Origin: Nitrospirota bacterium
GTDB lineage: Bacteria > Nitrospirota > Thermodesulfovibrionia > Thermodesulfovibrionales > Dissulfurispiraceae
DNA: 64,000 bases
Direction of reading: 5' to 3'
Assembly: GCA_963710375.1 (NCBI GenBank)
Contig: CAVPZX010000006.1
Location: forward strand, 64,001-128,000
The position numbers and the translations under genes are program-made. The notes beneath the pieces are model-generated. The model saw only the letters and a list, made by a program, of their open reading frames with translations. It made no database searches and was not told the origin of the DNA. Below, piece after piece: positions 3,940 to 31,706 of the stretch. The stretch's first letter is position 1. Each line of letters begins with the position of its first letter.

Positions 3940-4742
3940 TGAGAAGACCTCCAGCTGTAGCAGGTCAGTTTTATTATGGAACGGCGGCACGTTTAAAGGG
4001 CCAGGTTGAGCAGTATATCAGCAGGGATACAGTCAAAGAGAAAGTAATCGGCGCCCTCTCGCCTCATGCCGGGCTGATGTATTCCGGGCATGTGGCCGGT
4101 GCAGTCTACTCCTCAATCAGCTTCCCCGAGACCTTTATTCTCCTGGGACCTAACCATACGGGGCTTGGCGCCTCATTGTCGCTAATGGCCTCGGGGGAAT
4201 GGGAGATACCTACCGGTATACTCTCCATTGATGAGGACCTGGCTGGAGCTATAGCAGGGGAGCTTCCTGCCATTTCCCGCGATACCCAGGCACATGAGTT
4301 TGAACATTCCATTGAGGTGCAGTTGCCGTTTATAGCCTATTTTTCGGACAACGCCAGGATAGTCCCAATTGCTGTGAAGAACGCGTCATTGCAGGACTGC
4401 AAGATTATAGGTGAGGGGATAGCCAGGGCGGTTAAGCATTCCGGCAGGTCGGTCGTAATTGTTGCAAGTTCGGACATGAGCCATTATGTTTCCGATGCGC
4501 TTGCAAGGACGCTGGATAACCTCGCCTTGAATGAGGTGCTTGAATTGAACCCGGAAGGACTCTATTCTGTAGTAGTAAAGCAAAACATTTCCATGTGCGG
4601 CTTTATTCCTGCGACAATCATGCTCTATGCCGCAAAGGCATTGGGGGCACTACAAGCCAGGCTTGTGAAATATGCGACATCAGGTGAGGTAAGCGGTGAT
4701 TATGAGCATGTTGTCGGATATGCAGGAGTTGTTGTAAAGTGA
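3939..4742 (+). CDS. amrB: AmmeMemoRadiSam system protein B (MEMO1 family)
   Basis: PAVAGQFY, PHAG..YSG, GPNHTG, EHSIEVQLPF, SSDMSHY, VGYAG. Confidence 0.9.
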   Translation: MRRPPAVAGQFYYGTAARLKGQVEQYISRDTVKEKVIGALSPHAGLMYSGHVAGAVYSSISFPETFILLGPNHTGLGASLSLMASGEWEIPTGILSIDEDLAGAIAGELPAISRDTQAHEFEHSIEVQLPFIAYFSDNARIVPIAVKNASLQDCKIIGEGIARAVKHSGRSVVIVASSDMSHYVSDALARTLDNLALNEVLELNPEGLYSVVVKQNISMCGFIPATIMLYAAKALGALQARLVKYATSGEVSGDYEHVVGYAGVVVK

Positions 4743-19168: not shown

Positions 19169-20344
19169 ATGCCTGTGCATACCGGTCTTGACAGCTTTGA
19201 AAAGAGGTGGCCGAAAGGCTTAAGGGGAGCGAGGGTTGGGCTCCTTGTACACCCTGCTTCAGTGAACAGGAAACTGGAGCATGCTGCAGACCTCTTCCTG
19301 CGATCACGCAAGCTTACACTCAAGGTCCTTTTCGGCCCGCAGCACGGTATCCGTGGCGAGACACAGGATAATATGATTGAATGGGAAGGTTTCAGGGACG
19401 GGCGCACTGGATTGCCTGTTTTCAGTCTTTACGGCCACACAAGGAAGCCTGAGTCGGCGATGCTGGAAGACATCGACGTAATGGTTATCGATTTGCAGGA
19501 TATCGGTTCGCGCTACTATACGTTCATTTGGACTATGGAACTCTGCATGCAGTCCTGTCTTGAGGCTGGCAAACCGGTAGTGGTTCTCGACAGGCCCAAT
19601 CCCATAGGCGGCACGCTTGTGGAGGGACCGGTGCTCGATGAGCAATGTGCATCGTTTGTCGGACAACGGCCGCTTCCTGTGCGCCACGGTATGAGCATGG
19701 GGGAAATCGCATTATATTTGAAAGAATCATTCTATCCAGGACTTGAATTGCACATTGTTCCCATGCAAGGCTGGCAGAGAAAAATGTGGTTTGATAATAC
19801 GAAATTGCCCTGGGTTTTGCCTTCACCGAACATGCCTGCAATAGATACAGCATCCGTGTATCCTGGAATGTGTCTTCTGGAAGGGACCATGGTCAGTGAA
19901 GGACGCGGCACCACGCGCCCATTCGAGATTTTCGGCGCCCCCTATATAGATCCGGACAGACTTGTCAAAAAGCTCATTACATATAAACTGTCTGGTGTAG
20001 TTTTCAGGCCGATGTACTTTAAGCCTGCTTTTCAAAAGCATGCAGGCGCGCTCTGCGGAGGGGCGCAGATACATATTACCGGAAGGGAGCGCTTCAGGCC
20101 GTTCAGAACAGGAGTTGCCGTTATCATGTCTATACTAGATCTTTACCCGAAAGATTTCCTGTGGAAGCTTCCTCCATATGAATATGAAACGGAGAAAATG
20201 CCTTTCGATATTTTGGCAGGAACGGAAAGACTCAGGCAGGAGATAGAAAAGGGAGAGCGCCTCGACCGGATGGAGGCGTGGTGGAGAGAACAGAGTCAAA
20301 GCTTTCAGAAGAATGTGCGAAGAAGATTTATGCTTTATGTTTAA
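19169..20344 (+). CDS. namZ: Exo-beta-N-acetylmuramidase NamZ family (DUF1343)
   Basis: FGPQHG, DLQDIGSRYYT, LDRPNP, PSPNMP, SEGRGTTRPFE. Confidence 0.88.
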   Translation: MPVHTGLDSFEKRWPKGLRGARVGLLVHPASVNRKLEHAADLFLRSRKLTLKVLFGPQHGIRGETQDNMIEWEGFRDGRTGLPVFSLYGHTRKPESAMLEDIDVMVIDLQDIGSRYYTFIWTMELCMQSCLEAGKPVVVLDRPNPIGGTLVEGPVLDEQCASFVGQRPLPVRHGMSMGEIALYLKESFYPGLELHIVPMQGWQRKMWFDNTKLPWVLPSPNMPAIDTASVYPGMCLLEGTMVSEGRGTTRPFEIFGAPYIDPDRLVKKLITYKLSGVVFRPMYFKPAFQKHAGALCGGAQIHITGRERFRPFRTGVAVIMSILDLYPKDFLWKLPPYEYETEKMPFDILAGTERLRQEIEKGERLDRMEAWWREQSQSFQKNVRRRFMLYV

Positions 20345-22214
20345 AGATATCCGCTGTTTTGTCCCTGCTGCTGGTTTTGGCGAACGGATGAGGCCGATCA
20401 GCGACTATCTCCCAAAGCCGCTTCTTCCGGTACTCGGCAAACCGGTGCTTGGACATGTGCTCGAAAAACTCACCCGCCTAGGCGGGCTGATGGTGCAACA
20501 CATCGGCATCAATTTGCACCACAAAAAAGAACCGATCAAAGAATGGTTAGAAAGATCATCCTATAAAAGCAAGGTGTTTTTTTTCACCGAGGACCAGATA
20601 CTGGATACAGGTGGTGCGTTGAAGAACGCTGAATCGTTTCTGTCTGAGAGCAGCGTCTTTCTCGTTCACAATGCCGATATTCTCGCGGACTTTGACTTAA
20701 CAAAGCTGCTGGAGCACCACTATGCTTCAGGGAATATATTGACGCTTGCCGTCCACGATTGCCCCTGTTTTAATAGTGTTGCGGTGGACGGCAACGGCAA
20801 CCTGAAAGGAGTAGTTGGGAAGGCATATCTGCCAGATCCTGCGAAAGAACGTTTGGTAGCCTACACCGGCATTGCCGTATATGACAGGGCCTTCCTCAAG
20901 TTTCTCCCTGAAGGGAAATCGAGTGTTGTCAACGCCTGGATGAACGCCGCAGCGTCCGGATGCAGGACAGGCACAATGGATGTCACCGGGTCATACTGGA
21001 CCGATGTAGGGACGCCGGCTGCTTACGCTTCCGCTGTTATTAGTGCATTAAGGGCTGATGGCGAGAACCTCTATTTTGATACTGGAGCTGCTGGCTGTGC
21101 CGGTGCTCTCTTTAACGGTTATAACGCCGTCGAAAAGGGATGCAATATCAAACGGGGAGTTTCGCTGCGGAATTGTATTGTGCTGCCATGGAGCATGCCC
21201 GATCAGGGCGCTTACGAGAACTCTATCATAGGTCCGGATTTTGTTCTCCCCTTTGTCGAAAACAGGACAGAGGCGTCATCAGGTGATGGCGGAACGCTTA
21301 TAGGCATTGGCGGTTCCGACAGGAAATATTTGAGAGTCCAAAGAGAAGGGAAAACTGCAGTACTTATGCAGTGTGCCGAGGGTGATCCGGATTTCACGCG
21401 GCATATCGAATATACCCGCTTTTTTCGAAAATTCGAGCTCCCGGTGCCCGGGCTTATCAGCGTGAAGCCTGAAAGTGGTATTGCCATTTTCGAAGACCTA
21501 GGAGATATGTCTCTCTATAGCTGGTTTAAGTGTCCAAGAGACAGCAGCCAGGTGGAGCAGATATACAGAAGGACGCTTGATACCCTGGTAATGCTTCATG
21601 GCACGATAACAGATCACGTTGCCGAATGCCCTCTCCTTGCAAACAGGGTTTTTGATTATGACCACCTGCGCTGGGAGACGGCATATTTTATTGAGAGATT
21701 TATAGAGGGTGTGCGGGGGATGACAATATATAATTCTCAGCTACTGGAGGATGACTTCAATCGCCTGGCTTTGAAAGTTGATGCATTTCCGAAGACAGTT
21801 ATTCACCGTGACTTTCAGTCACAGAACATTATGGTCGTGCCGCCGGAAACTCCGAGGCTTATAGACTATCAGGGCGCACGGATGGCCCCCCCTGCTTATG
21901 ATGTGGTCTCTCTCTTATGGGACCCGTACTTTCGCCTGGATGACGCAATGCGGACCCGCCTTGTAGAATATTATATGGACCGCATGCATGCCGTAGACAC
22001 AGGCTTCGATGCTGAAAAGTTCAGGGCAACGCTGCTGCCCTGCCGTTTGCAGCGACACATGCAGGCCTTGGGCGCGTTCGGCTTCCTTTCTTCGGTAAAG
22101 GGCAAAAAATATTTTCTGAAGCATGTCCCCGAAGCATTGAGAATGCTGAAGGAAGAGACGGCCCTTGCCAGGGATGAGTACCCGGCGATGTATGAATTGG
22201 TGGCTGGACTCTGA
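20337..22214 (+). CDS. Fused MurU-like nucleotidyltransferase + AmgK-like anomeric sugar kinase (APH fold)
   Basis: N-terminal AAGFGERMRP..PKPL, DTGG, HNAD, WTDVGT; C-terminal GSDRKY.R, EDLGD, HRDFQSQN, IDYQGAR, YDVVSLL.D, QRHMQALGAF. Confidence 0.82.
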   Translation: MFKDIRCFVPAAGFGERMRPISDYLPKPLLPVLGKPVLGHVLEKLTRLGGLMVQHIGINLHHKKEPIKEWLERSSYKSKVFFFTEDQILDTGGALKNAESFLSESSVFLVHNADILADFDLTKLLEHHYASGNILTLAVHDCPCFNSVAVDGNGNLKGVVGKAYLPDPAKERLVAYTGIAVYDRAFLKFLPEGKSSVVNAWMNAAASGCRTGTMDVTGSYWTDVGTPAAYASAVISALRADGENLYFDTGAAGCAGALFNGYNAVEKGCNIKRGVSLRNCIVLPWSMPDQGAYENSIIGPDFVLPFVENRTEASSGDGGTLIGIGGSDRKYLRVQREGKTAVLMQCAEGDPDFTRHIEYTRFFRKFELPVPGLISVKPESGIAIFEDLGDMSLYSWFKCPRDSSQVEQIYRRTLDTLVMLHGTITDHVAECPLLANRVFDYDHLRWETAYFIERFIEGVRGMTIYNSQLLEDDFNRLALKVDAFPKTVIHRDFQSQNIMVVPPETPRLIDYQGARMAPPAYDVVSLLWDPYFRLDDAMRTRLVEYYMDRMHAVDTGFDAEKFRATLLPCRLQRHMQALGAFGFLSSVKGKKYFLKHVPEALRMLKEETALARDEYPAMYELVAGL

Positions 22215-22314: not shown

Positions 22315-25152
22315 ATGGGAAAAACTCCTGAAGACGAAGCTCGCGAAGTAATCGACAATCTCCTTCAAAAGGCGGGCTGGCATATTTGTGATTATAAAAA
22401 TGCCAATATTCACGCCGGAATCGGCGTGGTCATCAGAAACTTTCCCCTAAAGCCCGGCCACGGAACAGCCGACTATCTCTTCTATATCGAAGACAAGGCA
22501 GCCGGTATTATAGAGGCGAAAAAGGAAGGGACAACCCTCACAGGCGTCGAGATCCAATCCGACAAATACAAGCAAGGCCTTCCCGATATTCTTCCCGCCT
22601 GGCATCGGCCTTTGCCTTTCTGTTATGAATCAACAGGCGTCGAAACCAGGTTTACAAATTACCTTGATCCGGATGCTTGTTCCCGCCGCATATTTTCTTT
22701 CCATCGGCCCGAGACCCTTGCAGCGTGGCTTAAGGATGAAAGACACGTTGCGTTAGACCGTGCAGCCGAGACGCTGGCAGTATACAATAAGCCCTCGACC
22801 TTGCGCTCACGACTTCGCGAGATGCCGCTGTTAAGAGAAGAAGGTCTCTGGCCGGCGCAGATCAAGGCGATCAGAAATCTCGAAAAATCTCTTGCTGATA
22901 ACCGACCACGCGCCCTCATCCAGATGGCTACCGGAAGCGGCAAGACCTTTACCGCTGTCAATTTCATTTACCGGCTCATCCGGTTCGGAGGAGCCCAGAG
23001 AGTGCTCTTCCTTGTTGACAGGGCAAACCTGGGCCGCCAGACCAAGAAAGAATTCGATCAGTTTCAATCGCCCTACAGTCCATACAAATTTACTGAGGAA
23101 TACATAGTCCAGCAGCTTAAGTCGAATAAGATCGACACCACCGCCAGGGTATGCATTTCAACAATCCAGCGACTTTACTCCATTCTTAAGGGAGAAGAAT
23201 TGGACGAGGAACTTGATGAACATTCTGCCGCAGGGCTTGAGGACCTATTCAAAGAGCCGCAGCCTGTGGAGTATAACCCTGCTGTTCCTCCCGAGACCTT
23301 CGACATCATCGTGACCGACGAATGTCATCGTTCCATCTACAACCTCTGGCGTCAGGTGCTCGAATATTTCGATTCCTTCATCATCGGCCTTACCGCAACA
23401 CCGAACAAACAGACCTTCGGGTTTTTTAACCAGAACCTAGTAATGGAATACCCTCACGAGCAGGCGGTGGCGGATGGCGTGAATGTCAATTACGACGTTT
23501 ACCGGATCAGGACAAATATCACCCAGAAAGGCTCGACAGTTGAGGCAGGCTATTTTGTGGATAAGCGTGACCGCGAGACCAGAGCTGTCCGATGGGAGAA
23601 GCTCGATGACGATCTCGAATATACCCCTGGCCAGCTCGACAGGGACGTAGTGGCGGAGGACCAGATCCGCACCATTATCCGGACCTTCAGGGACAAGCTC
23701 TTCACCGAGATATTCCCCGGCCGTACAGATGTGCCGAAGACACTTATCTATGCAAAGGACGACTCCCATGCCGAGGATATTGTGAAGATTGTCAGGGAAG
23801 AATTCGGCAAGGGGAATGAGTTTTGCCAAAAGATCACCTATAAGACCACCGGTGTAAGCCCTGATGAGCTGATCGCTTCTTTCAGGAACAGCTATTTCCC
23901 GAGGATCGCGGTTACGGTCAACATGATTGCCACCGGAACAGACATCAAACCCCTCGAAATCGTTCTCTTTCTGCGAACAGTCAAGTCACTCACTTACTTC
24001 GAGCAGATGAAAGGTCGTGGCGTGCGAATCATCAGTGACGACGATCTTATCGCGGTCACCCCAGATGCAAAGGGAAAGACTAAATTTATTATCGTCGATG
24101 CTGTTGGTGTCTGTGAGCAGGACAAGACCGACTCCCGTCCCATGGAAAAGCAGCGCACTGTTCCTCTTGAAAAGCTCCTTCAGGCAGTTGCCCTCGGTAA
24201 TACTGATCCTGAAGTTATCTCATCCATTGCAGTGCGTTTTTCGAGGCTCGAAAAAAAGCTCACTCCCGAAGATAAGGCGGCAGTCCAGAAACTCGCTGAT
24301 GGAAAGAGCCTTAAGGCTCTGACCGGCGTTCTTGTGCAGTCTATCGATCCTGACCGCCATGTTGAAAGAGCAAGGAAAGATAATACGGAAGTTATTGAGC
24401 CAACGGCTCAGCAGATCAAGCAGGCGTCCGAAAAGATCATTAAAGAGGCGGCATCGCCTTTCCACAATCCCGAGCTGCGAAATAAGATTCTCGAACTCCA
24501 CAGACTCACCGAGCAAACGATTGATACGGTGAGCAAGGATGAAGTAACCGAGGCCGGATTCAGCGCCGATGCGCTGGAGAAGGCGAAGGGGATGGTGACT
24601 TCATTCGAGCAGTTTATAAAAGACCACAAGGACGAAATAACCGCCTTGCAGATTCTTTACAGTTTACCTGCTCGTTCCATGAGCACGCGCGCAGGCAGGC
24701 GCCTCCAGTTCGAGCAGATCAAAGAGCTGGCGAATATTATCGAGCGGCCGCCCTATCTATGGGGGATCGACAGGCTCTGGGATGCATATGCCGCGCTTGA
24801 GAGGTCAAAGGTCAGGGGCGCGGGCAGCCATCGGATATTGACCGACCTTGTCTCCCTTATCCGCTTTGCCCTCCATCAGGACAATGAACTGGAACCCTAT
24901 GCAGAGCACGTGCAGGAGCGTTTTAATTCGTGGCTTGTAAGCCAGGAAAAGGCAGGGAAGAAGTTCAGCGACGAGCAGATATTCTGACTTGAGAAGATCA
25001 AGGAACATATTATGGGAAGTCTGAGCATGGGCAGAGAAGATTTCGACTATACGCCGTTCAAGGAAAAAGGAGGCATCGGAAAGGCTTATCAGCTTTTCGG
25101 GGAAGAGCTGTGGGGGATGCTTGATGAAATGAATGAGGTGCTGGCGGCGTGA
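22315..25152 (+). pseudogene. hsdR: Type I restriction endonuclease subunit R (EcoEI-like) with in-frame TGA at 24985-24987; frame continues to 25152
   Basis: ADY..IEAK nuclease motif, MATGSGKT, DECHR, QMKGRG. After the TGA the same frame reads LEKIKEHIMGSLSMGREDFDYTPFKEKGGIGKAYQLFGEELWGMLDEMNEVLAA*, overlapping the hsdS GTG. Confidence 0.85.
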
Positions 25153-26645
25153 GGAAAGGTCTTAAAAGAAAACTCTCTGATAATGCGACGTTACCAAAAG
25201 GATGGGAATGGTCTACGCTTGGTGAAATCTCAGATAAACCGCAATATGGATGGACCACGAAGGCCAATCATGAAACAGGTAATCTTAAACTTCTCAGAAC
25301 AACGGACATCACTTCGGGTGCCATTGATTGGTCCACTGTCCCATATTGCACAGAAAAGCCTGACGATATCGAAAAATATTTGGTCAAATCTGGCGATATT
25401 TTAATTTCGCGGGCAGGTTCTGTCGGCGTAAGTTTTCTGATAAATCGACCCGAACGCGCCGTATTCGCCTCGTATCTTATCCGTTTCAGAATAAAGGAGC
25501 CGATCGAAGCAAAATACGTCAACTATTACTTAAAAAGTCCAGCCTATTGGGACGTTATTGGCCAAAGCAAACTGGGGATAGCTGTTCCAAATGTTAACGC
25601 AACAAAGCTCTCACAGGTGCCGATTCCATTAGCTCCACTTAACACCCAACAGCAGATCACGGAGGAGATCGAAAAACAATTTTCCCGGCTGGACGAAGCG
25701 GTTGCGGGGCTCAAGCGCATCAAGGCAAACATCAAACGTTACAAAGCGGCTGTCCTTACGGCAGCTGTTGAAGGGAAGATGACGGAAGAATGGCGAAAAC
25801 AAAATCCAAATATTGAACCCGCAGATAAGCTCCTCAAACGCATTCTCGCCGAACGAAAAAAGAAATGGGAAGCAGAGCATCCCGGAAAGAAATTCAAAGA
25901 GCCCACATCACCTGACCTCTCAAATCTGACAGAGTTGGCGGAGGGGTGGGCGTGGGTTACGTTTTCGCAGATAGCGCTGTTTCAAAACGGCCGGTCTTTC
26001 CCTAGTAAGGCGTACTCTTCTGGCGGAGTAAAGTTACTCCGGCCCGGCAATCTATATTCGGATAGCTCAGTGAGGTGGAGAGACTACAATACAAGAAGAC
26101 TGCCAGAAGCATGGGCAGACAAGTATCCAGATTATCTTGTGGGCGGCGGCGAGCTTATCATGAATCTCACCGCACAGTCACTAAGAGATGAATTTCTAGG
26201 ACGTACATGCATCACTGGCGAAGTAGAACGTTGCCTCCTTAATCAGCGGTTAGCGAGGATCTCCCCATTGCTTGGTGTGCTTCCGCGCTTTCTGCTATGG
26301 GTCTTAAAGGCGAAGCGCTTCAGGGACTTTGTCGATACGCTTAATACAGGCAGCCTTATTCAACATATGTTTACCTCTGATCTTGATCAATTCAATTTTC
26401 CGCTTCCACCCCAAGCCGAGCAAGAATCCATTATTAAAGAACTTGAAAGCCGCTTTTCTGTCGCCGAAGAAATCGAAACTGTTCTGGACACGAATCTCAA
26501 GCGCGCTGAACGCCTGCGGCAGTCGATTTTGAAAATGGCTTTTTCCGGTCATTTGATTCCAAAGAGAGCGGATCATTATGCTGCGGATTTGGCCGAGTTG
26601 CCGATGGCGGCAGAATCGACAATCCCCTACGGTTCCAGCAAGTGA
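25149..26645 (+). CDS. hsdS: Type I restriction-modification specificity subunit
   Basis: Two TRDs each starting LP/LA.GW.W; conserved P.P...Q helical spacers; LRQSILKMAFSG. Confidence 0.92.
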   Translation: MRKGLKRKLSDNATLPKGWEWSTLGEISDKPQYGWTTKANHETGNLKLLRTTDITSGAIDWSTVPYCTEKPDDIEKYLVKSGDILISRAGSVGVSFLINRPERAVFASYLIRFRIKEPIEAKYVNYYLKSPAYWDVIGQSKLGIAVPNVNATKLSQVPIPLAPLNTQQQITEEIEKQFSRLDEAVAGLKRIKANIKRYKAAVLTAAVEGKMTEEWRKQNPNIEPADKLLKRILAERKKKWEAEHPGKKFKEPTSPDLSNLTELAEGWAWVTFSQIALFQNGRSFPSKAYSSGGVKLLRPGNLYSDSSVRWRDYNTRRLPEAWADKYPDYLVGGGELIMNLTAQSLRDEFLGRTCITGEVERCLLNQRLARISPLLGVLPRFLLWVLKAKRFRDFVDTLNTGSLIQHMFTSDLDQFNFPLPPQAEQESIIKELESRFSVAEEIETVLDTNLKRAERLRQSILKMAFSGHLIPKRADHYAADLAELPMAAESTIPYGSSK

Positions 26646-27295
26646 AAAAATCCCCTCGCTACGCCACCTCTCATCTCTCCGAATCCCAATTCGAGCCAGG
26701 CTCTAACGATCAGGTGCTCAAGAACAAATTAGGTATTACAAGTCCTGACGAAATTGACAGGCGTGAGAAAGAAGAGCAGTTGCGGGCAATGGATGACCTG
26801 ACTGAGCTTTTCGACAGAGACCACCGGTTCAATGCTGAAGACATTTGTTCAATGCATAAAATCTGGCTTGGAAACGTCTACGAATGGGCAGGGAAATATC
26901 GACAGGTAAAGATGAGCAAGGGCGATTTTACTTTTGCCTTTCCTGAACAGATTCCCAAATTAATGACCGAGGTCGAAAGGGGACCGCTCTACGTGTTCAC
27001 GCCATGTCACGTTAAAACACATGATGAGATCGCTAATGCATTGGCTGTTGTCCACACGGAATTGGTGCTAATTCATCCCTTCCGAGAGGGAAACGGCAGA
27101 GTCGCAAGAATGCTGGCTATATTGATGGGACTTCAGGCTGGATTGCCGCCGCTCGATTTTCAAGAAATGATCACAAAGGATAAAGAAGAATATATACAGG
27201 CAATTCATATTAGTGTTAGCGGAAACTATGCGCCAATGAAAAAGGTTTTTACAGCTGTTATTCGTAAGACGCTGCGGGTTCGTGAACAGCGATGA
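26642..27295 (+). CDS. Fic domain protein (AMPylase)
   Basis: Canonical HPFREGNGRVAR motif; VLKNKLGI, YEWAGKYR. Confidence 0.93.
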   Translation: MKKSPRYATSHLSESQFEPGSNDQVLKNKLGITSPDEIDRREKEEQLRAMDDLTELFDRDHRFNAEDICSMHKIWLGNVYEWAGKYRQVKMSKGDFTFAFPEQIPKLMTEVERGPLYVFTPCHVKTHDEIANALAVVHTELVLIHPFREGNGRVARMLAILMGLQAGLPPLDFQEMITKDKEEYIQAIHISVSGNYAPMKKVFTAVIRKTLRVREQR

Positions 27296-27455
27296 CCTCT
27301 TTCAGCTTCTTTTCCGCTGACTTTGAAAGCTTGGGATACTTGGTAAGCACCCCTTCGACCGCAGTTGACGAGGAGACAGCTTGATAAATCAACTCCTTAC
27401 ACAGTTTAGGGTCTTTGAGGTACGGATTAGTCTGTTTAAGAGGCTTTTTCAACAT
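27258..27455 (-). CDS. Putative Fic antitoxin (65 aa) with (S/T)xxxE(G/N) inhibitory motif
   Basis: STAVEG motif in a predicted helix (ELIYQAVSSSTAVEG); adjacent to fic; upstream TGaTAAAAT extended -10. Confidence 0.65.
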   Translation of the reverse strand: MLKKPLKQTNPYLKDPKLCKELIYQAVSSSTAVEGVLTKYPKLSKSAEKKLKEVIAVHEPAASYE

Positions 27456-27497
27456 ACTTTATTTTATCATATCGTGTCTGTATTTAGGGAGATTTAG

Positions 27498-28988
27498 ATG
27501 ACAAACGGTTCAGCCACAATTGTTCAAAAACTCTGGAACTACTGTAACGTACTGCGTGACGACGGGATGAGCTATGGCGATTACGTCGAGCAACTCACCT
27601 ACCTCCTCTTCCTCAAGATGGCCGATGAGCGGTCGAAACCTCCCCACAACCAGCCCAGCGCTATGCCCAGGCAGTACGACTGGCAGAGTCTCCTCAGGAA
27701 AGACGGCGATGACCTTTTCGACCATTACCGCCATTTGCTCGAAAAGCTGGGGCAGGAAAAGGGACTCTTGGGCCTTATCTTTGGCAGGGCGCAGAACAAG
27801 TTCCAGGACCCGGCAAAGCTCCGGCGTCTTGTGGTCGATCTGATCGGCAAGGAAGACTGGTCTTCCATGAGCGCTGACGTGAAGGGCGACGCTTATGAGG
27901 GACTTCTCGAAAAGAACGCACAGGATACGAAGTCAGGCGCAGGCCAGTACTTTACGCCCCGCCCCCTGATCAGGGCGATTGTGGATTCTGTTGCGCCTAA
28001 ACCAAAGGAAAAGGTCTGCGATCCTGCCTGTGGCACCGGCGGATTTCTTCTTGCTGCCCATGACTACATTGCGAATCACTACAAGCTGAATAAGGAAGAG
28101 AAACGCTTCCTCGATGAAAAAGCGCTGAAGGGATGGGAGTTGGTGCATAACACTGCCCGTCTATGCGCCATGAACATGATGCTCCACGGCATCGGGCACT
28201 CAGACGATCTCCCTCTCATTGTTGCCGACTCTCTTGCCAGTGACCCCGGCGAAAGGTTCGAGGTCGTGCTGACCAATCCGCCTTTCGGAAAAAAAAGCAG
28301 CACAACCATCGTTGGAGCGGATGGAAAGCCGTACAAGGAAAAAGAGACAATAGAACGGGATGATTTCTGGGCAACGACATCGAACAAACAGTTAAACTTT
28401 CTCCAGCATGTAAAGACCCTGGTCAAACCCCACGGCCGTGCAGCCGTCGTTGTACCTGACAATGTGCTCTTTGAAGGCGGCGCAGGCGAGACAGTCAGGC
28501 GGAAGCTCCTTCATGAGTGCGACGTTCATACACTCCTGCGCCTCCCGACCGGCCTGTTCTACGCCCAGGGCGTGAAGGCGAACGTCCTTTTCTTCGACAA
28601 AAAGCCGGCCTCTGAAACGCCCTGGACAAAGAGGCTCTGGATTTACGACTTCAGGACGAACAAAGATTTTACTCTAAAAACAAATCCATTGAAGCGTGAA
28701 GACCTTGATGAGTTCGTCAAGTGCTATAACCCGGCAAACCGGCATGACCGGAAACCGACATGGTCAGAGAAGAACTCCGCCGGTCGCTGGCGTGCATTTA
28801 ATTATGAAGAACTGGTTAACCGTGACAAGGCGAGCCTCGACATCTTCTGGCTCAAGGATGAAAGCCTGGAAGACTCCGAAAACCTTCCAGACCCTGACAT
28901 CATCGCCCACGAAATCGTCGAGGACCTTGAAGCGGCGCTGGGTCAGTTTAAGCTTATTGCAGAGGATTTGGGGGCGGAGCCAGCTTGA
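27498..28988 (+). CDS. hsdM: Type I restriction-modification N6-adenine methyltransferase
   Basis: KLWNYCNVLRDDG, GQYFTPR, DPACGTGGF, NPPF. Confidence 0.95.
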   Translation: MTNGSATIVQKLWNYCNVLRDDGMSYGDYVEQLTYLLFLKMADERSKPPHNQPSAMPRQYDWQSLLRKDGDDLFDHYRHLLEKLGQEKGLLGLIFGRAQNKFQDPAKLRRLVVDLIGKEDWSSMSADVKGDAYEGLLEKNAQDTKSGAGQYFTPRPLIRAIVDSVAPKPKEKVCDPACGTGGFLLAAHDYIANHYKLNKEEKRFLDEKALKGWELVHNTARLCAMNMMLHGIGHSDDLPLIVADSLASDPGERFEVVLTNPPFGKKSSTTIVGADGKPYKEKETIERDDFWATTSNKQLNFLQHVKTLVKPHGRAAVVVPDNVLFEGGAGETVRRKLLHECDVHTLLRLPTGLFYAQGVKANVLFFDKKPASETPWTKRLWIYDFRTNKDFTLKTNPLKREDLDEFVKCYNPANRHDRKPTWSEKNSAGRWRAFNYEELVNRDKASLDIFWLKDESLEDSENLPDPDIIAHEIVEDLEAALGQFKLIAEDLGAEPA

Positions 28989-29050
28989 TCCAAAGATCAT
29001 GATATTATGTCAGAATGCACATAAAACCTTCATAGGAAGTGGCTCGGGCT

Positions 29051-29404
29051 ATGAGTGATCGTCTAAATGAGATAATCGAGAAACTCCTCGAGTTCCGCAG
29101 GGAAAGGGACTGGAAACAGTTTCATCGTCCGAAAGACCTGGCAATCTCCATTGTCCTGGAGGCTGCAGAATTATTGGAGGAATTTCAATGGAAAACCGAC
29201 GAGGAGATAAAGCGCTACCTGCAAGAGGACGGATTGTCCCGTGTCGGGGAGGAGCTTGCCGATATTGCTATCTACATTGCGCTTATGTCTAACGACCTCG
29301 GCATAGATCTGCTTGAGGAGATGCGGAAAAAGATCAGGAAGAACGAGGAGAAGTATCCGGTGGAGAAATCAAAAGGCTCGTCAAAAAAATACGATAAACT
29401 GTGA
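29051..29404 (+). CDS. MazG-like nucleotide pyrophosphohydrolase
   Basis: RDWKQFH.PKDL, EAAELLE, EELADI, KNEEKYP. Confidence 0.9.
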   Translation: MSDRLNEIIEKLLEFRRERDWKQFHRPKDLAISIVLEAAELLEEFQWKTDEEIKRYLQEDGLSRVGEELADIAIYIALMSNDLGIDLLEEMRKKIRKNEEKYPVEKSKGSSKKYDKL

Positions 29405-29411
29405 CCCAAAT

Positions 29412-29514
29412 GTGAATAGTGAATGGTGAATCGTGAACGGCTCAAGGCAAAATTCAAGACGAAAAATCTTTAGCTTTTAACTATTCGCCATTCACCTTTC
29501 ACCATTCACTATTT
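29412..29514. repeat. Inverted heptamer tandem array (GTGAATN)4 ... (NWTTCAC)n
   Basis: gtgaata gtgaatg gtgaatc gtgaacg at 29412-29439; tattcgc cattcac ctttcac cattcac at 29482-29509. Confidence 0.8.
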
Positions 29515-29547
29515 GGCGCCTGCCCCTGCCGCTCCCTTCCTTATATA

Positions 29548-31518: not shown

Positions 31519-31685
31519 AACGTTAATAGTGAATAGTGAAAGGTGAATAGTGAATAGTGAAAAGCAACAGACTAAAACCAAAGTAGAATTTTTATTTCTT
31601 GTATTTTGTATTTGTTTTTTTACTATTCACTATTCACCCTTCACTGTTTTTGTTACTATTTACTATTCACCTTTCACTTTTCACG
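31515..31685. repeat. Inverted heptamer tandem array (GTGAAWR)7 ... (YWTTCAC)n
   Basis: Seven units at 31515-31563, the first containing the upstream TGA stop; reverse-complement units at about 31617-31685. Confidence 0.85.
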
Positions 31686-31706
31686 TTCTTTGTTTTTCTA
31701 GATAGT

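What the first reader, a model, noticed from the sequence alone, without database searches (positions are those of the whole stretch)
26642..27469. Fic toxin with a convergent, antisense-encoded (S/T)xxxEG antitoxin embedded inside a type I R-M operon
Seen: a fic gene with the full catalytic motif HPFREGNGRVAR overlaps the hsdS stop (GTGA) and has no obvious internal inhibitory helix. A 65-aa ORF on the opposite strand overlaps the fic 3' end by 38 bp and carries STAVEG. It has its own TGaTAAAAT extended -10, 5 nt from its ATG. Established: class I Fic antitoxins (VbhA/FicA type) use an (S/T)xxxE(G/N) helix and normally lie upstream on the same strand. Inference: this is a tail-to-tail TA module with separate promoters, so Fic dosage follows R-M transcription while the antitoxin is expressed independently. 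It could add antisense control and may act as an abortive-infection back-up or guard for the R-M system.
Basis: partly seen in the sequence, partly recalled or inferred. Interest (0 to 1): 0.72.

Follow-up and report, generated by a model that had tools for sequence, protein, structure and literature searches.

The report
Convergent Fic toxin-antitoxin inside restriction operon
Two facing genes, a Fic-family enzyme and a small protein predicted to plug its active site, sit between two subunits of a restriction-modification operon; they are likely an ordinary relative of the published Yersinia FicY-AntY toxin-antitoxin pair, and a phage-defence role is untested.

Summary
A conserved 65-aa gene (27258-27455, -) carries STAVEG and overlaps it by 38 bp. 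The tail-to-tail layout is the family norm (51 of 53 genome loci) and is published: FicY/AntY of Yersinia pseudotuberculosis (PMC7479194). Relatives carry the same H141 and S22TAIET27 numbering. The predicted complex supports binding (0.90, best control 0.01), with the motif helix against Fic Arg156.

The R-M link is partial: 9 of 53 genome loci and 33 of 80 close-clade loci. The module looks like exchangeable cargo at the hsdS-hsdM junction, not a dedicated R-M guard. Here hsdR has a premature TGA. The Fic's best PADLOC match is the untested candidate PDC-S04.

Details I did not find in print: a -10 box 4-7 nt before the antitoxin start with almost no Shine-Dalgarno (72 of 74), likely leaderless; decayed hsdM 5' copies before fic (13 of 47); no ParE in this host, so FicY's target is missing. 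The scan had not noted this module before. Verdict: new member of a known kind, low to moderate interest.

The parts
22315..24987 (+). hsdR (type I restriction subunit, EcoEI_R_C type). Ends at an in-frame TGA (24985-24987); the frame stays open to 25152, so 55 C-terminal residues are lost
   Evidence: Pfam ResIII, HSDR_N, EcoEI_R_C. Trp at this position in 4 of 4 relatives. No difference from the window at this place in contigs of runs X1, X4, X5, from two studies
25149..26645 (+). hsdS (type I specificity subunit); its stop overlaps the fic start (GTGA)
   Evidence: Pfam Methylase_S; PADLOC Specificity_I; sequence
26642..27295 (+). fic, 217 aa, class I FicT-like enzyme of the FicY family; predicted AMP transferase
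   Evidence: Pfam Fic 5.5e-20; PADLOC PDC-S04 1.5e-72; AlphaFold2 pLDDT 93.4; Foldseek target-normalised TM 0.81-0.82 to VbhT, Fic-1 and EcFicT
27074..27109 (+). Catalytic motif HPFREGNGRVAR (His145-Arg156)
   Evidence: H145, G150, N151, R153, R156 invariant in 66 aligned rows
27258..27455 (-). AntY-like antitoxin gene, 65 aa, convergent with fic
   Evidence: 201 homologs; coding-type codon pattern; top hit of a profile of 32 proteobacterial STAIET antitoxins among 37,824 genome ORFs, E 9e-5, next 1.8; predicted complex
27351..27368 (-). Inhibitory motif S30-T-A-V-E34-G
   Evidence: S30, T31, A32, E34 invariant in 66 rows; residues 22-36 in the predicted interface, S30 next to Fic R156
27258..27295 (.). 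38-bp tail-to-tail coding overlap of fic and the antitoxin
   Evidence: the same 38-bp overlap in most close-clade pairs
27461..27469 (-). Extended -10 box TGATAAAAT, 5 nt before the antitoxin ATG; likely a leaderless promoter
   Evidence: -10 hexamer 4-7 nt before the start in 72 of 74 distinct upstream sequences, SD-like in 4 of 74; 0 of 32 fic starts
27498..28988 (+). hsdM (type I methyltransferase), starting 42 nt from the antitoxin start, head to head
   Evidence: Pfam N6_Mtase, HsdM_N; PADLOC MTase_I 1.3e-201
29039..29404 (+). MazG-like nucleotide pyrophosphohydrolase gene closing the island
   Evidence: Pfam MazG-like 3.8e-20

Best explanation
This is likely a class I Fic toxin-antitoxin module of the FicY/AntY type, sitting as exchangeable cargo at the hsdS-hsdM junction of a type I R-M operon. 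Shown: the two genes, their motifs, their convergent layout across the family, and the conserved -10 box. Predicted: the 65-aa protein lays its STAVEG helix against the Fic active site, Ser30 next to Arg156. Inferred from VbhTA, Fic-1/AntF and FicY/AntY: Glu34 blocks productive ATP binding, so AMPylation is off while antitoxin is present, and the complex may remove AMP as Fic-1-AntF does. Inferred: free Fic AMPylates a type II topoisomerase B subunit and arrests growth; here that would be GyrB, because no ParE was found. Inferred: fic is translationally coupled to hsdS and read from the upstream operon transcript, while the antitoxin is made from its own leaderless mRNA, so the cassette brings its own antidote wherever it lands. 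It persists mainly as a selfish or island-stabilising module and often decays toxin first.
For: Convergent antitoxin in 51 of 53 Fic-found genome loci; the two misses are a contig end and a fic fragment. A convergent fic, whole or part, in 68 of 80 antitoxin-found metagenome loci. All 42 intact Fic genes with room downstream keep the antitoxin; only 37 of 67 antitoxin loci with room keep an intact fic. Complex score 0.90, best of 3 controls 0.01; the mark was reached by 116 of 157 solved and 2 of 215 mismatched pairs; runs agree in at least 95% of contacts, partner pLDDT at least 84. Relatives L027, L030 and L038 have Fic His141 plus antitoxin S22TAIET27, the numbers given for FicY and AntY. 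Yersinia proteins P0126, P0133 and P0143 have S22TAIET27. Neighbours vary widely. 17 plasmid-collection records carry the Fic, several beside an integrase. Decayed hsdM 5' copies precede fic in 13 of 47 windows, 0 on the opposite strand.
Against: No activity, toxicity or expression was measured. The window's clade is split from the proteobacterial members by a long branch (0.89 changes per site), with 34-46% Fic identity and STAVEG in place of STAIET. FicY modifies ParE and not GyrB, yet this genome has only one GyrB-family and one GyrA-family locus, so the target must differ or be absent. The complex pass may reflect likeness to solved class I complexes, and the Glu34-Arg156 pair itself is not among the 25 best-listed contacts. 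The 42/42 versus 37/67 contrast compares different data sets and clades, and includes near-duplicates and possible assembly errors.
Confidence: 0.72

Rival explanations
1. An abortive-infection system coupled to the R-M operon. hsdR-hsdS-fic-(reversed antitoxin)-hsdM would form a noncontiguous operon, like tha/ith in Staphylococcus prophages. Phage infection, or a change in R-M transcription, would lower antitoxin output and free the Fic to stall the infected cell.
For: Best PADLOC match is the defence candidate PDC-S04, full length, 1.5e-72; PDCs were defined by embedding in BREX, DISARM or type I R-M (10.1101/2024.01.29.577857, section 10). hsd genes or fragments lie near 33 of 80 close-clade loci. 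Other neighbours include SMODS, OLD, HerA, HNH, TOTE and HEPN proteins. Another Fic, SoFic, is an abortive-infection system (PMC12249575, part 1 of 4). No terminator predicted between the genes. Noncontiguous toxin/inhibitor operons exist (PMC11087260, passages).
Against: 44 of 53 genome loci have no type I hsd gene within about 4 kb. 6 of 8 relatives with this hsdM type lack the antitoxin nearby. The convergent layout is kept away from R-M operons, so it did not arise for R-M coupling. The local hsdR is truncated. fic is broken or absent at 30 of 67 antitoxin loci. The SoFic match is weak (PADLOC 3e-19; NCBIfam 28 bits against a cut-off of 550).
Confidence: 0.18
2. A mild or non-toxic Fic (EcFicT-like). 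The Fic-antitoxin complex would act mainly as a reversible AMPylase/deAMPylase switch on an unknown protein, not as a growth-arrest toxin.
For: Several class I Fics showed no activity on GyrB or ParE (PMC7479194, passages). [quoted passage not shown] This host lacks ParE.
Against: Intact fic was never found without the antitoxin (42 of 42), the pattern expected of a toxic enzyme. The catalytic motif is canonical and invariant. FicY arrests growth.
Confidence: 0.08
3. The small ORF is a chance antisense frame, or a real gene unrelated to Fic.
For: The motif alone occurs in 152 of 5545 short ORFs of this genome. No Pfam, NCBIfam or PADLOC family and no solved-structure sequence matches it significantly.
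Against: Coding-type conservation, invariant motif, linkage to fic across phyla, conserved -10 box, predicted binding at the active site.
Confidence: 0.02

Closest known systems
FicY/AntY of Yersinia pseudotuberculosis YPIII (PMC7479194; passages read)
   Same: Class I Fic with a downstream, convergent antitoxin gene, suggested independent promoters and an STA(I/V)E motif. Relatives in my alignment have the same His141 and S22TAIET27 numbering.
   Different: Separate, likely Nitrospirota-centred clade (long branch); STAVEG instead of STAIET; 65 aa against about 52 aa in the enterobacterial relatives; 38-bp overlap against 4 bp there. The antitoxin is likely leaderless, while the enterobacterial relatives have SD-like leaders. 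Inside an hsd operon. Host lacks ParE, FicY's target.
Class I FicTA modules VbhT/VbhA, EcFicT/EcFicA, Fic-1/AntF (PDB 3SHG, 5JFF, 8WT0)
   Same: Same fold (target-normalised TM 0.81-0.82), canonical HPFxxGNGRxxR motif, separate (S/T)xxxE(G/N) antitoxin contacting the second motif Arg (for Fic-1/AntF, PMC13327609 passages).
   Different: For EcFic and Fic-1 the antitoxin gene is upstream or co-transcribed; for VbhA this is recalled. The antitoxin profile finds none of them by sequence at E up to 10. Fic identity 22-28%.
PADLOC PDC-S04 (phage defence candidate; candidates described in 10.1101/2024.01.29.577857)
   Same: Full-length match of the Fic to model PDLC04839, 1.5e-72; found embedded in a type I R-M operon, the criterion used for PDCs.
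   Different: An untested candidate. No PADLOC model matches the antitoxin. The main text does not mention Fic or S04; its tables S3-8 could not be seen. That 'S' means single-gene is recalled.
Noncontiguous operons, such as tha/ith of S. aureus phage 80alpha (PMC11087260, PMC7154746; passages read)
   Same: An inhibitor gene with its own promoter lies reversed inside an operon that carries the toxin.
   Different: Unrelated proteins (HEPN RNase). Co-transcription across the reversed gene was shown there by RNA-seq and is not shown here.
SoFic/AS1 (PMC12249575; part 1 of 4 read)
   Same: Fic-domain AMPylase with a small downstream antitoxin gene; anti-phage.
   Different: Class II, about 360 aa, with an internal inhibitory helix and a C-terminal domain; only a weak match here.

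Membership tests
Class I Fic toxin-antitoxin (FicTA) | Fic domain with canonical HPFx(D/E)GNGRxxR motif | tested here: met
   HPFREGNGRVAR at 145-156; Pfam Fic
Class I Fic toxin-antitoxin (FicTA) | No inhibitory (S/T)xxxE(G/N) motif inside the Fic | tested here: met
   None in the window Fic; stricter pattern in 0 of 66 rows
Class I Fic toxin-antitoxin (FicTA) | Separate small neighbouring gene with a conserved (S/T)xxxE(G/N) motif | tested here: met
   STAVEG; S30, T31, A32, E34 invariant in 66 rows; linked in 51 of 53 loci
Class I Fic toxin-antitoxin (FicTA) | Antitoxin binds Fic with the motif helix at the active-site Arg | tested here: inconclusive
   Prediction only: 0.90 against control 0.01; residues 22-36 in the interface, S30 next to R156; E34-R156 not among the 25 listed pairs; like complexes are solved
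Class I Fic toxin-antitoxin (FicTA) | Toxin AMPylates a target and inhibits growth; antitoxin neutralises it | not testable with these tools
   Indirect only: 42 of 42 intact fic genes keep the antitoxin
FicY/AntY type | Antitoxin gene downstream and convergent | tested here: met
   definition from PMC7479194
FicY/AntY type | Sequence homology to FicY and AntY | tested here: inconclusive
   The two sequences were not obtainable. Fingerprint match in relatives: His141 plus S22TAIET27, Yersinia members. A profile of STAIET antitoxins picks the window ORF first, E 9e-5
FicY/AntY type | Target is ParE (topoisomerase IV) | tested here: not met
   One B-subunit locus, scoring best as GyrB, and one A-subunit locus in a 98.76% complete genome. 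This is a property of FicY, not of class I membership; the actual target is untested
FicY/AntY type | Antitoxin has its own promoter | tested here: inconclusive
   Conserved -10 at 4-7 nt in 72 of 74; transcription not measured
PDC-S04 / Fic anti-phage system | Match to the PADLOC model | tested here: met
   PDLC04839, 1.5e-72, residues 6-208
PDC-S04 / Fic anti-phage system | Protects against phage | not testable with these tools
   No assay; PDCs are candidates
R-M guard (PrrC-like; role recalled) | Almost always embedded in type I R-M systems | tested here: not met
   9 of 53 and 33 of 80 loci have an hsd gene or fragment nearby; PrrC is described as almost exclusively embedded
Noncontiguous operon | One transcript crosses the reversed gene and the two mRNAs regulate each other | not testable with these tools
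   Gene layout fits and no terminator is predicted; no transcript data

The most novel reading that the evidence does not exclude
The PDC-S04 Fic family is a two-gene anti-phage system whose antitoxin has been overlooked because it is short and on the opposite strand. In this clade the antitoxin comes from a leaderless mRNA facing the R-M transcript, forming a noncontiguous operon, so R-M transcription or phage shut-off of host expression tips the balance and frees a GyrB-directed AMPylase. The cassette moves between hsd operons by duplicating the hsdM 5' end.
Probability: 0.15. Interest if true: 0.55.

Novelty: new member of a known kind. Interest (0 to 1): 0.27.

Why it matters
Modest. It extends the convergent FicY/AntY design from one Yersinia example to a wide family (many Pseudomonadota and a likely Nitrospirota-centred clade) whose antitoxin has no Pfam, NCBIfam or PADLOC model and is mostly annotated as hypothetical. 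It has a practical use: anyone testing PDC-S04 Fic genes for phage defence should clone the reversed downstream gene and its -10 box too. Because the host lacks topoisomerase IV, this member offers a test of how Fic target choice shifts between ParE and GyrB.

Tried and rejected
1. No RNA holder listed for the region; this is no evidence on expression either way.
2. The sigma-70 scan did not list the antitoxin promoter because it needs a -35 hexamer; it found 1 other site against 1.4 expected and no terminator.
3. The -10 control at offset 8-11 scored 48 of 74, but it overlaps the same AT-rich element and is not independent; offsets 12-23 gave 7-12 of 74.
4. The supplement of PMC7479194 was too large to read, so FicY and AntY were not compared directly.
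5. The antitoxin profile found no solved antitoxin at E up to 10.
6. No Fic relative in the phage collection at E 1e-20.
7. My motif regex missed the antitoxins of L007 and L026; an HMM found them, and the counts include them.
8. The R-M label on the Fic tree needs 10 changes (shuffled mean 16.8), but many 'no R-M' rows are short contigs, so I draw no order of events from it.
9. TGA recoding was rejected as the cause of the hsdR stop: hsdS and fic end in TGA at or near their expected ends.
10. A promoter for hsdM on the reverse face of the same -10 box was considered and not tested.
11. G058/L146 (E 9e-4, 20 positions) is treated as a likely chance match.
12. Literature searches: PDC-S04; Fic/antitoxin/convergent; FicY/AntY; Fic-1/AntF; Fic with R-M and hsdS; Fic anti-phage; leaderless/convergent antitoxin; noncontiguous operon. 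The listings showed no paper on this clade, on a leaderless Fic antitoxin, or on Fic TA modules in hsd operons. Most hits were seen as listings only, and subscription journals are largely not covered.
Full report
OBSERVATION. The region reads hsdR (22315-24987), hsdS (25149-26645), fic (26642-27295), a reversed 65-codon ORF (27258-27455), hsdM (27498-28988) and a MazG-like gene (29039-29404), between housekeeping genes. The closest named relatives are Nitrospirota (L001 at 58%, L051 best segment 88%; named hits), so the host is likely of that phylum (inference).

THE SMALL ORF IS A REAL GENE. It has 201 homologs among 201 candidates. In 30 close relatives, mismatches fall 296/102/766 on codon positions 1/2/3, with 595 synonymous and 303 non-synonymous codon changes. 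S30, T31, A32 and E34 are invariant in a 66-row alignment spanning 19-88% identity. It has no significant Pfam, NCBIfam or PADLOC match.

THE CONVERGENT LAYOUT IS THE FAMILY RULE. Of 53 genome loci found with the Fic alone, 49 had a convergent motif-bearing ORF by regex and two more by HMM, so 51 of 53. The misses are a contig end (L034) and a fic fragment (L053). Of 80 metagenome loci found with the antitoxin (the best 80 of 184), 68 have a convergent fic, whole or part. All 42 intact canonical fic genes with room downstream keep the antitoxin, whereas 37 of 67 antitoxin loci with room keep an intact fic, 23 a broken or partial one and 7 none (13 short loci set aside). That is the decay pattern expected of a toxin and its antidote. 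The two sets differ in clade and data quality and contain near-duplicates, so it is a hint, not a statistic.

STRUCTURE. The AlphaFold2 model (pLDDT 93.4) matches class I toxins VbhT, Fic-1 and EcFicT with target-normalised TM-scores of 0.81-0.82. The predicted pair scores 0.90 against a best control of 0.01; this mark was reached by 116 of 157 solved complexes and 2 of 215 mismatched pairs; the runs agree in at least 95% of contacts and the partner's pLDDT is at least 84. The interface includes Fic 150, 152-153 and 156-157 and antitoxin 22-36, with Ser30 next to Arg156. In Fic-1/AntF the equivalent Arg146 contacts Ser24 and Glu28 (PMC13327609, passages). The Glu34-Arg156 pair is not among the 25 contacts listed. 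Like complexes are solved, so the pass may show likeness only, although no solved antitoxin matches this one by sequence.

PROMOTER. Of 93 close-clade loci examined, 88 were usable and gave 74 distinct upstream sequences. A TAnnnT hexamer (at least 4 of 6 to TATAAT) ends 4-7 nt before the start in 72 of 74 (5 nt in 57; TG extension in 45), an SD-like word occurs in 4 of 74, and the sequence further upstream is not conserved. Controls: 0 of 32 fic starts; 7-12 of 74 at offsets 12-23; 48 of 74 at offset 8-11, which overlaps the same element; 207 of 5545 short ORFs in the genome. By the usual sigma-70 geometry (established knowledge) transcription would start at or next to the A of the ATG, so the mRNA is likely leaderless. 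Among 32 proteobacterial antitoxins, 6 show this layout and 12 have SD-like leaders, so it is mainly a trait of this clade and a few others. No transcript data were available.

R-M LINK. Type I hsd genes or fragments lie within about 4 kb in 9 of 53 genome loci, and near 33 of 80 close-clade loci (21 of 43 with at least 2 kb on one side; 6 of 11 with 2 kb on both). The module also occurs in other type I operon types, between hsdS and hsdR (L025, L090). Among 60 related genomes, 10 match the antitoxin profile (one likely by chance) and 8 carry this hsdM type; only G035 and G049 have both close together. Neighbours elsewhere range from housekeeping genes to SMODS, OLD, HerA, HNH, TOTE and other TA genes; of the downstream neighbours I scanned 84 of 107, leaving out those already identified as hsdM by tblastn, duplicates and a few short ORFs. 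The Fic also sits in 17 plasmid-collection records, several beside integrases. In the close clade a decayed copy of the hsdM 5' end lies just upstream of fic in 13 of 47 distinct windows, and in none on the opposite strand; further truncated copies follow the antitoxin in several loci. This fits insertion with long target duplication, described for whole R-M systems (PMC2853133, passages; lead from earlier finding e1-2413706). The window itself has no such copy. So the module is enriched in, but not tied to, hsd operons.

LOCAL hsdR IS TRUNCATED. An in-frame TGA at 24985-24987 stands where 4 of 4 relatives have Trp, and the frame runs on for 55 codons to the stop that overlaps hsdS. Contigs of three runs from two studies cover the site with no difference (X1 may be the source sample). 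This matters because the assembly has at least one likely error, a frameshift in gyrB. The lost part lies in the EcoEI_R_C domain; that this region helps HsdR bind the methyltransferase is recalled. Restriction is therefore probably impaired here while the TA pair is intact, which does not fit a dedicated guard, though the mutation may be recent.

COMPARISON WITH WHAT IS KNOWN. PMC7479194 (passages) describes FicY/AntY of Yersinia pseudotuberculosis: antY lies downstream and convergent, carries S22TAIET27, and inhibits FicY in vitro; the authors suggest independent promoters; FicY (His141) AMPylates ParE, not GyrB, and arrests growth. Relatives L027, L030 and L038 have His141 with S22TAIET27, Yersinia proteins in the same family have S22TAIET27, and a profile of 32 such antitoxins ranks the window's ORF first of 37,824 genome ORFs (E 9e-5, next 1.8). 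The deposited sequences were in a supplement I could not read, so the tie is indirect. The window's clade is distinct (branch 0.89, support 100/100). The genome has one GyrB-type and one GyrA-family locus and no ParE was found; its GyrB keeps a Tyr in the ATP-lid segment (equivalence to the modified Tyr is recalled). The Fic's best defence-library match is PDC-S04, from a set predicted by embedding in BREX, DISARM and type I R-M (10.1101/2024.01.29.577857, passages and section 10); its supplementary tables, which may describe S04, could not be seen. A reversed inhibitor gene inside an operon is the noncontiguous operon layout shown for tha/ith (PMC11087260, PMC7154746, passages). PMC5675462 (passages) added nothing on convergent antitoxins or hsd linkage.

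MECHANISM AND VERDICT. Most likely (0.72) this is a FicY/AntY-type class I TA cassette. Fic is coupled to the upstream gene, the antitoxin supplies itself from a minimal leaderless promoter and blocks the active site, and loss of antitoxin frees an AMPylase, probably against GyrB. An R-M-coupled abortive-infection role is possible (0.18) and untested. The core claim of novelty, a convergent (S/T)xxxEG antitoxin, is already in print. What my searches did not find is the breadth of the family, the leaderless promoter, the hsdM 5' scars and the ParE-less host. New member of a known kind; interest 0.27.

Noticed in passing
window 24985-24987: Premature in-frame TGA in hsdR at a conserved Trp; 55 C-terminal residues lost; same letters in contigs of three runs. 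The R-M system is probably modification-only in this population.
   Followed up: yes
L001:3102-3161 and 4021-4080; also L057, L083, L107, L124, L016: Repeated 60-90-bp decayed copies of the hsdM 5' end flank cargo genes at the hsdS-hsdM junction, like a cassette array without an integrase; 13 of 47 windows upstream of fic. IS200/Y1_Tnp-like genes are frequent co-cargo (L058, L059, L082, L105).
   Followed up: partly
G000:C2:999507-1001916 (L134): The single gyrB gene is split by a frameshift near 1000490 in the assembly, likely a sequencing error since the gene is essential; no parE or parC was found in the genome.
   Followed up: partly
window 29408-29516: A multicopy imperfect inverted repeat of about 100 bp (GTGAAT/ATTCAC-rich) after the MazG-like gene, with matches on all nine contigs; similar runs near 31550-31700. 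REP- or MITE-like.
   Followed up: partly
window 26560-26645 and 27258-27290: HsdS has an extra tail ending AAESTIPYG and the antitoxin ends HEPAASYE; both resemble the 'AAE..A.Y' tails that I recall on many mobile and defence proteins. Not tested.
   Followed up: no
L057:hsdM 5' copy; L083:hsdM 5' copy: Short in-frame inserts (about 10 codons) interrupt truncated hsdM 5' copies, like the palindromic mini-elements of earlier finding e1-5197665.
   Followed up: no
window 20313-22214: A fused nucleotidyltransferase plus APH-type phosphotransferase gene (633 aa) borders the island; it resembles a MurU-AmgK cell-wall recycling fusion (recalled).
   Followed up: no
L024, L026, L037: Fic relatives with altered motifs (HPYREGNGR, HPVREGNGR) that still keep the convergent antitoxin.
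   Followed up: no
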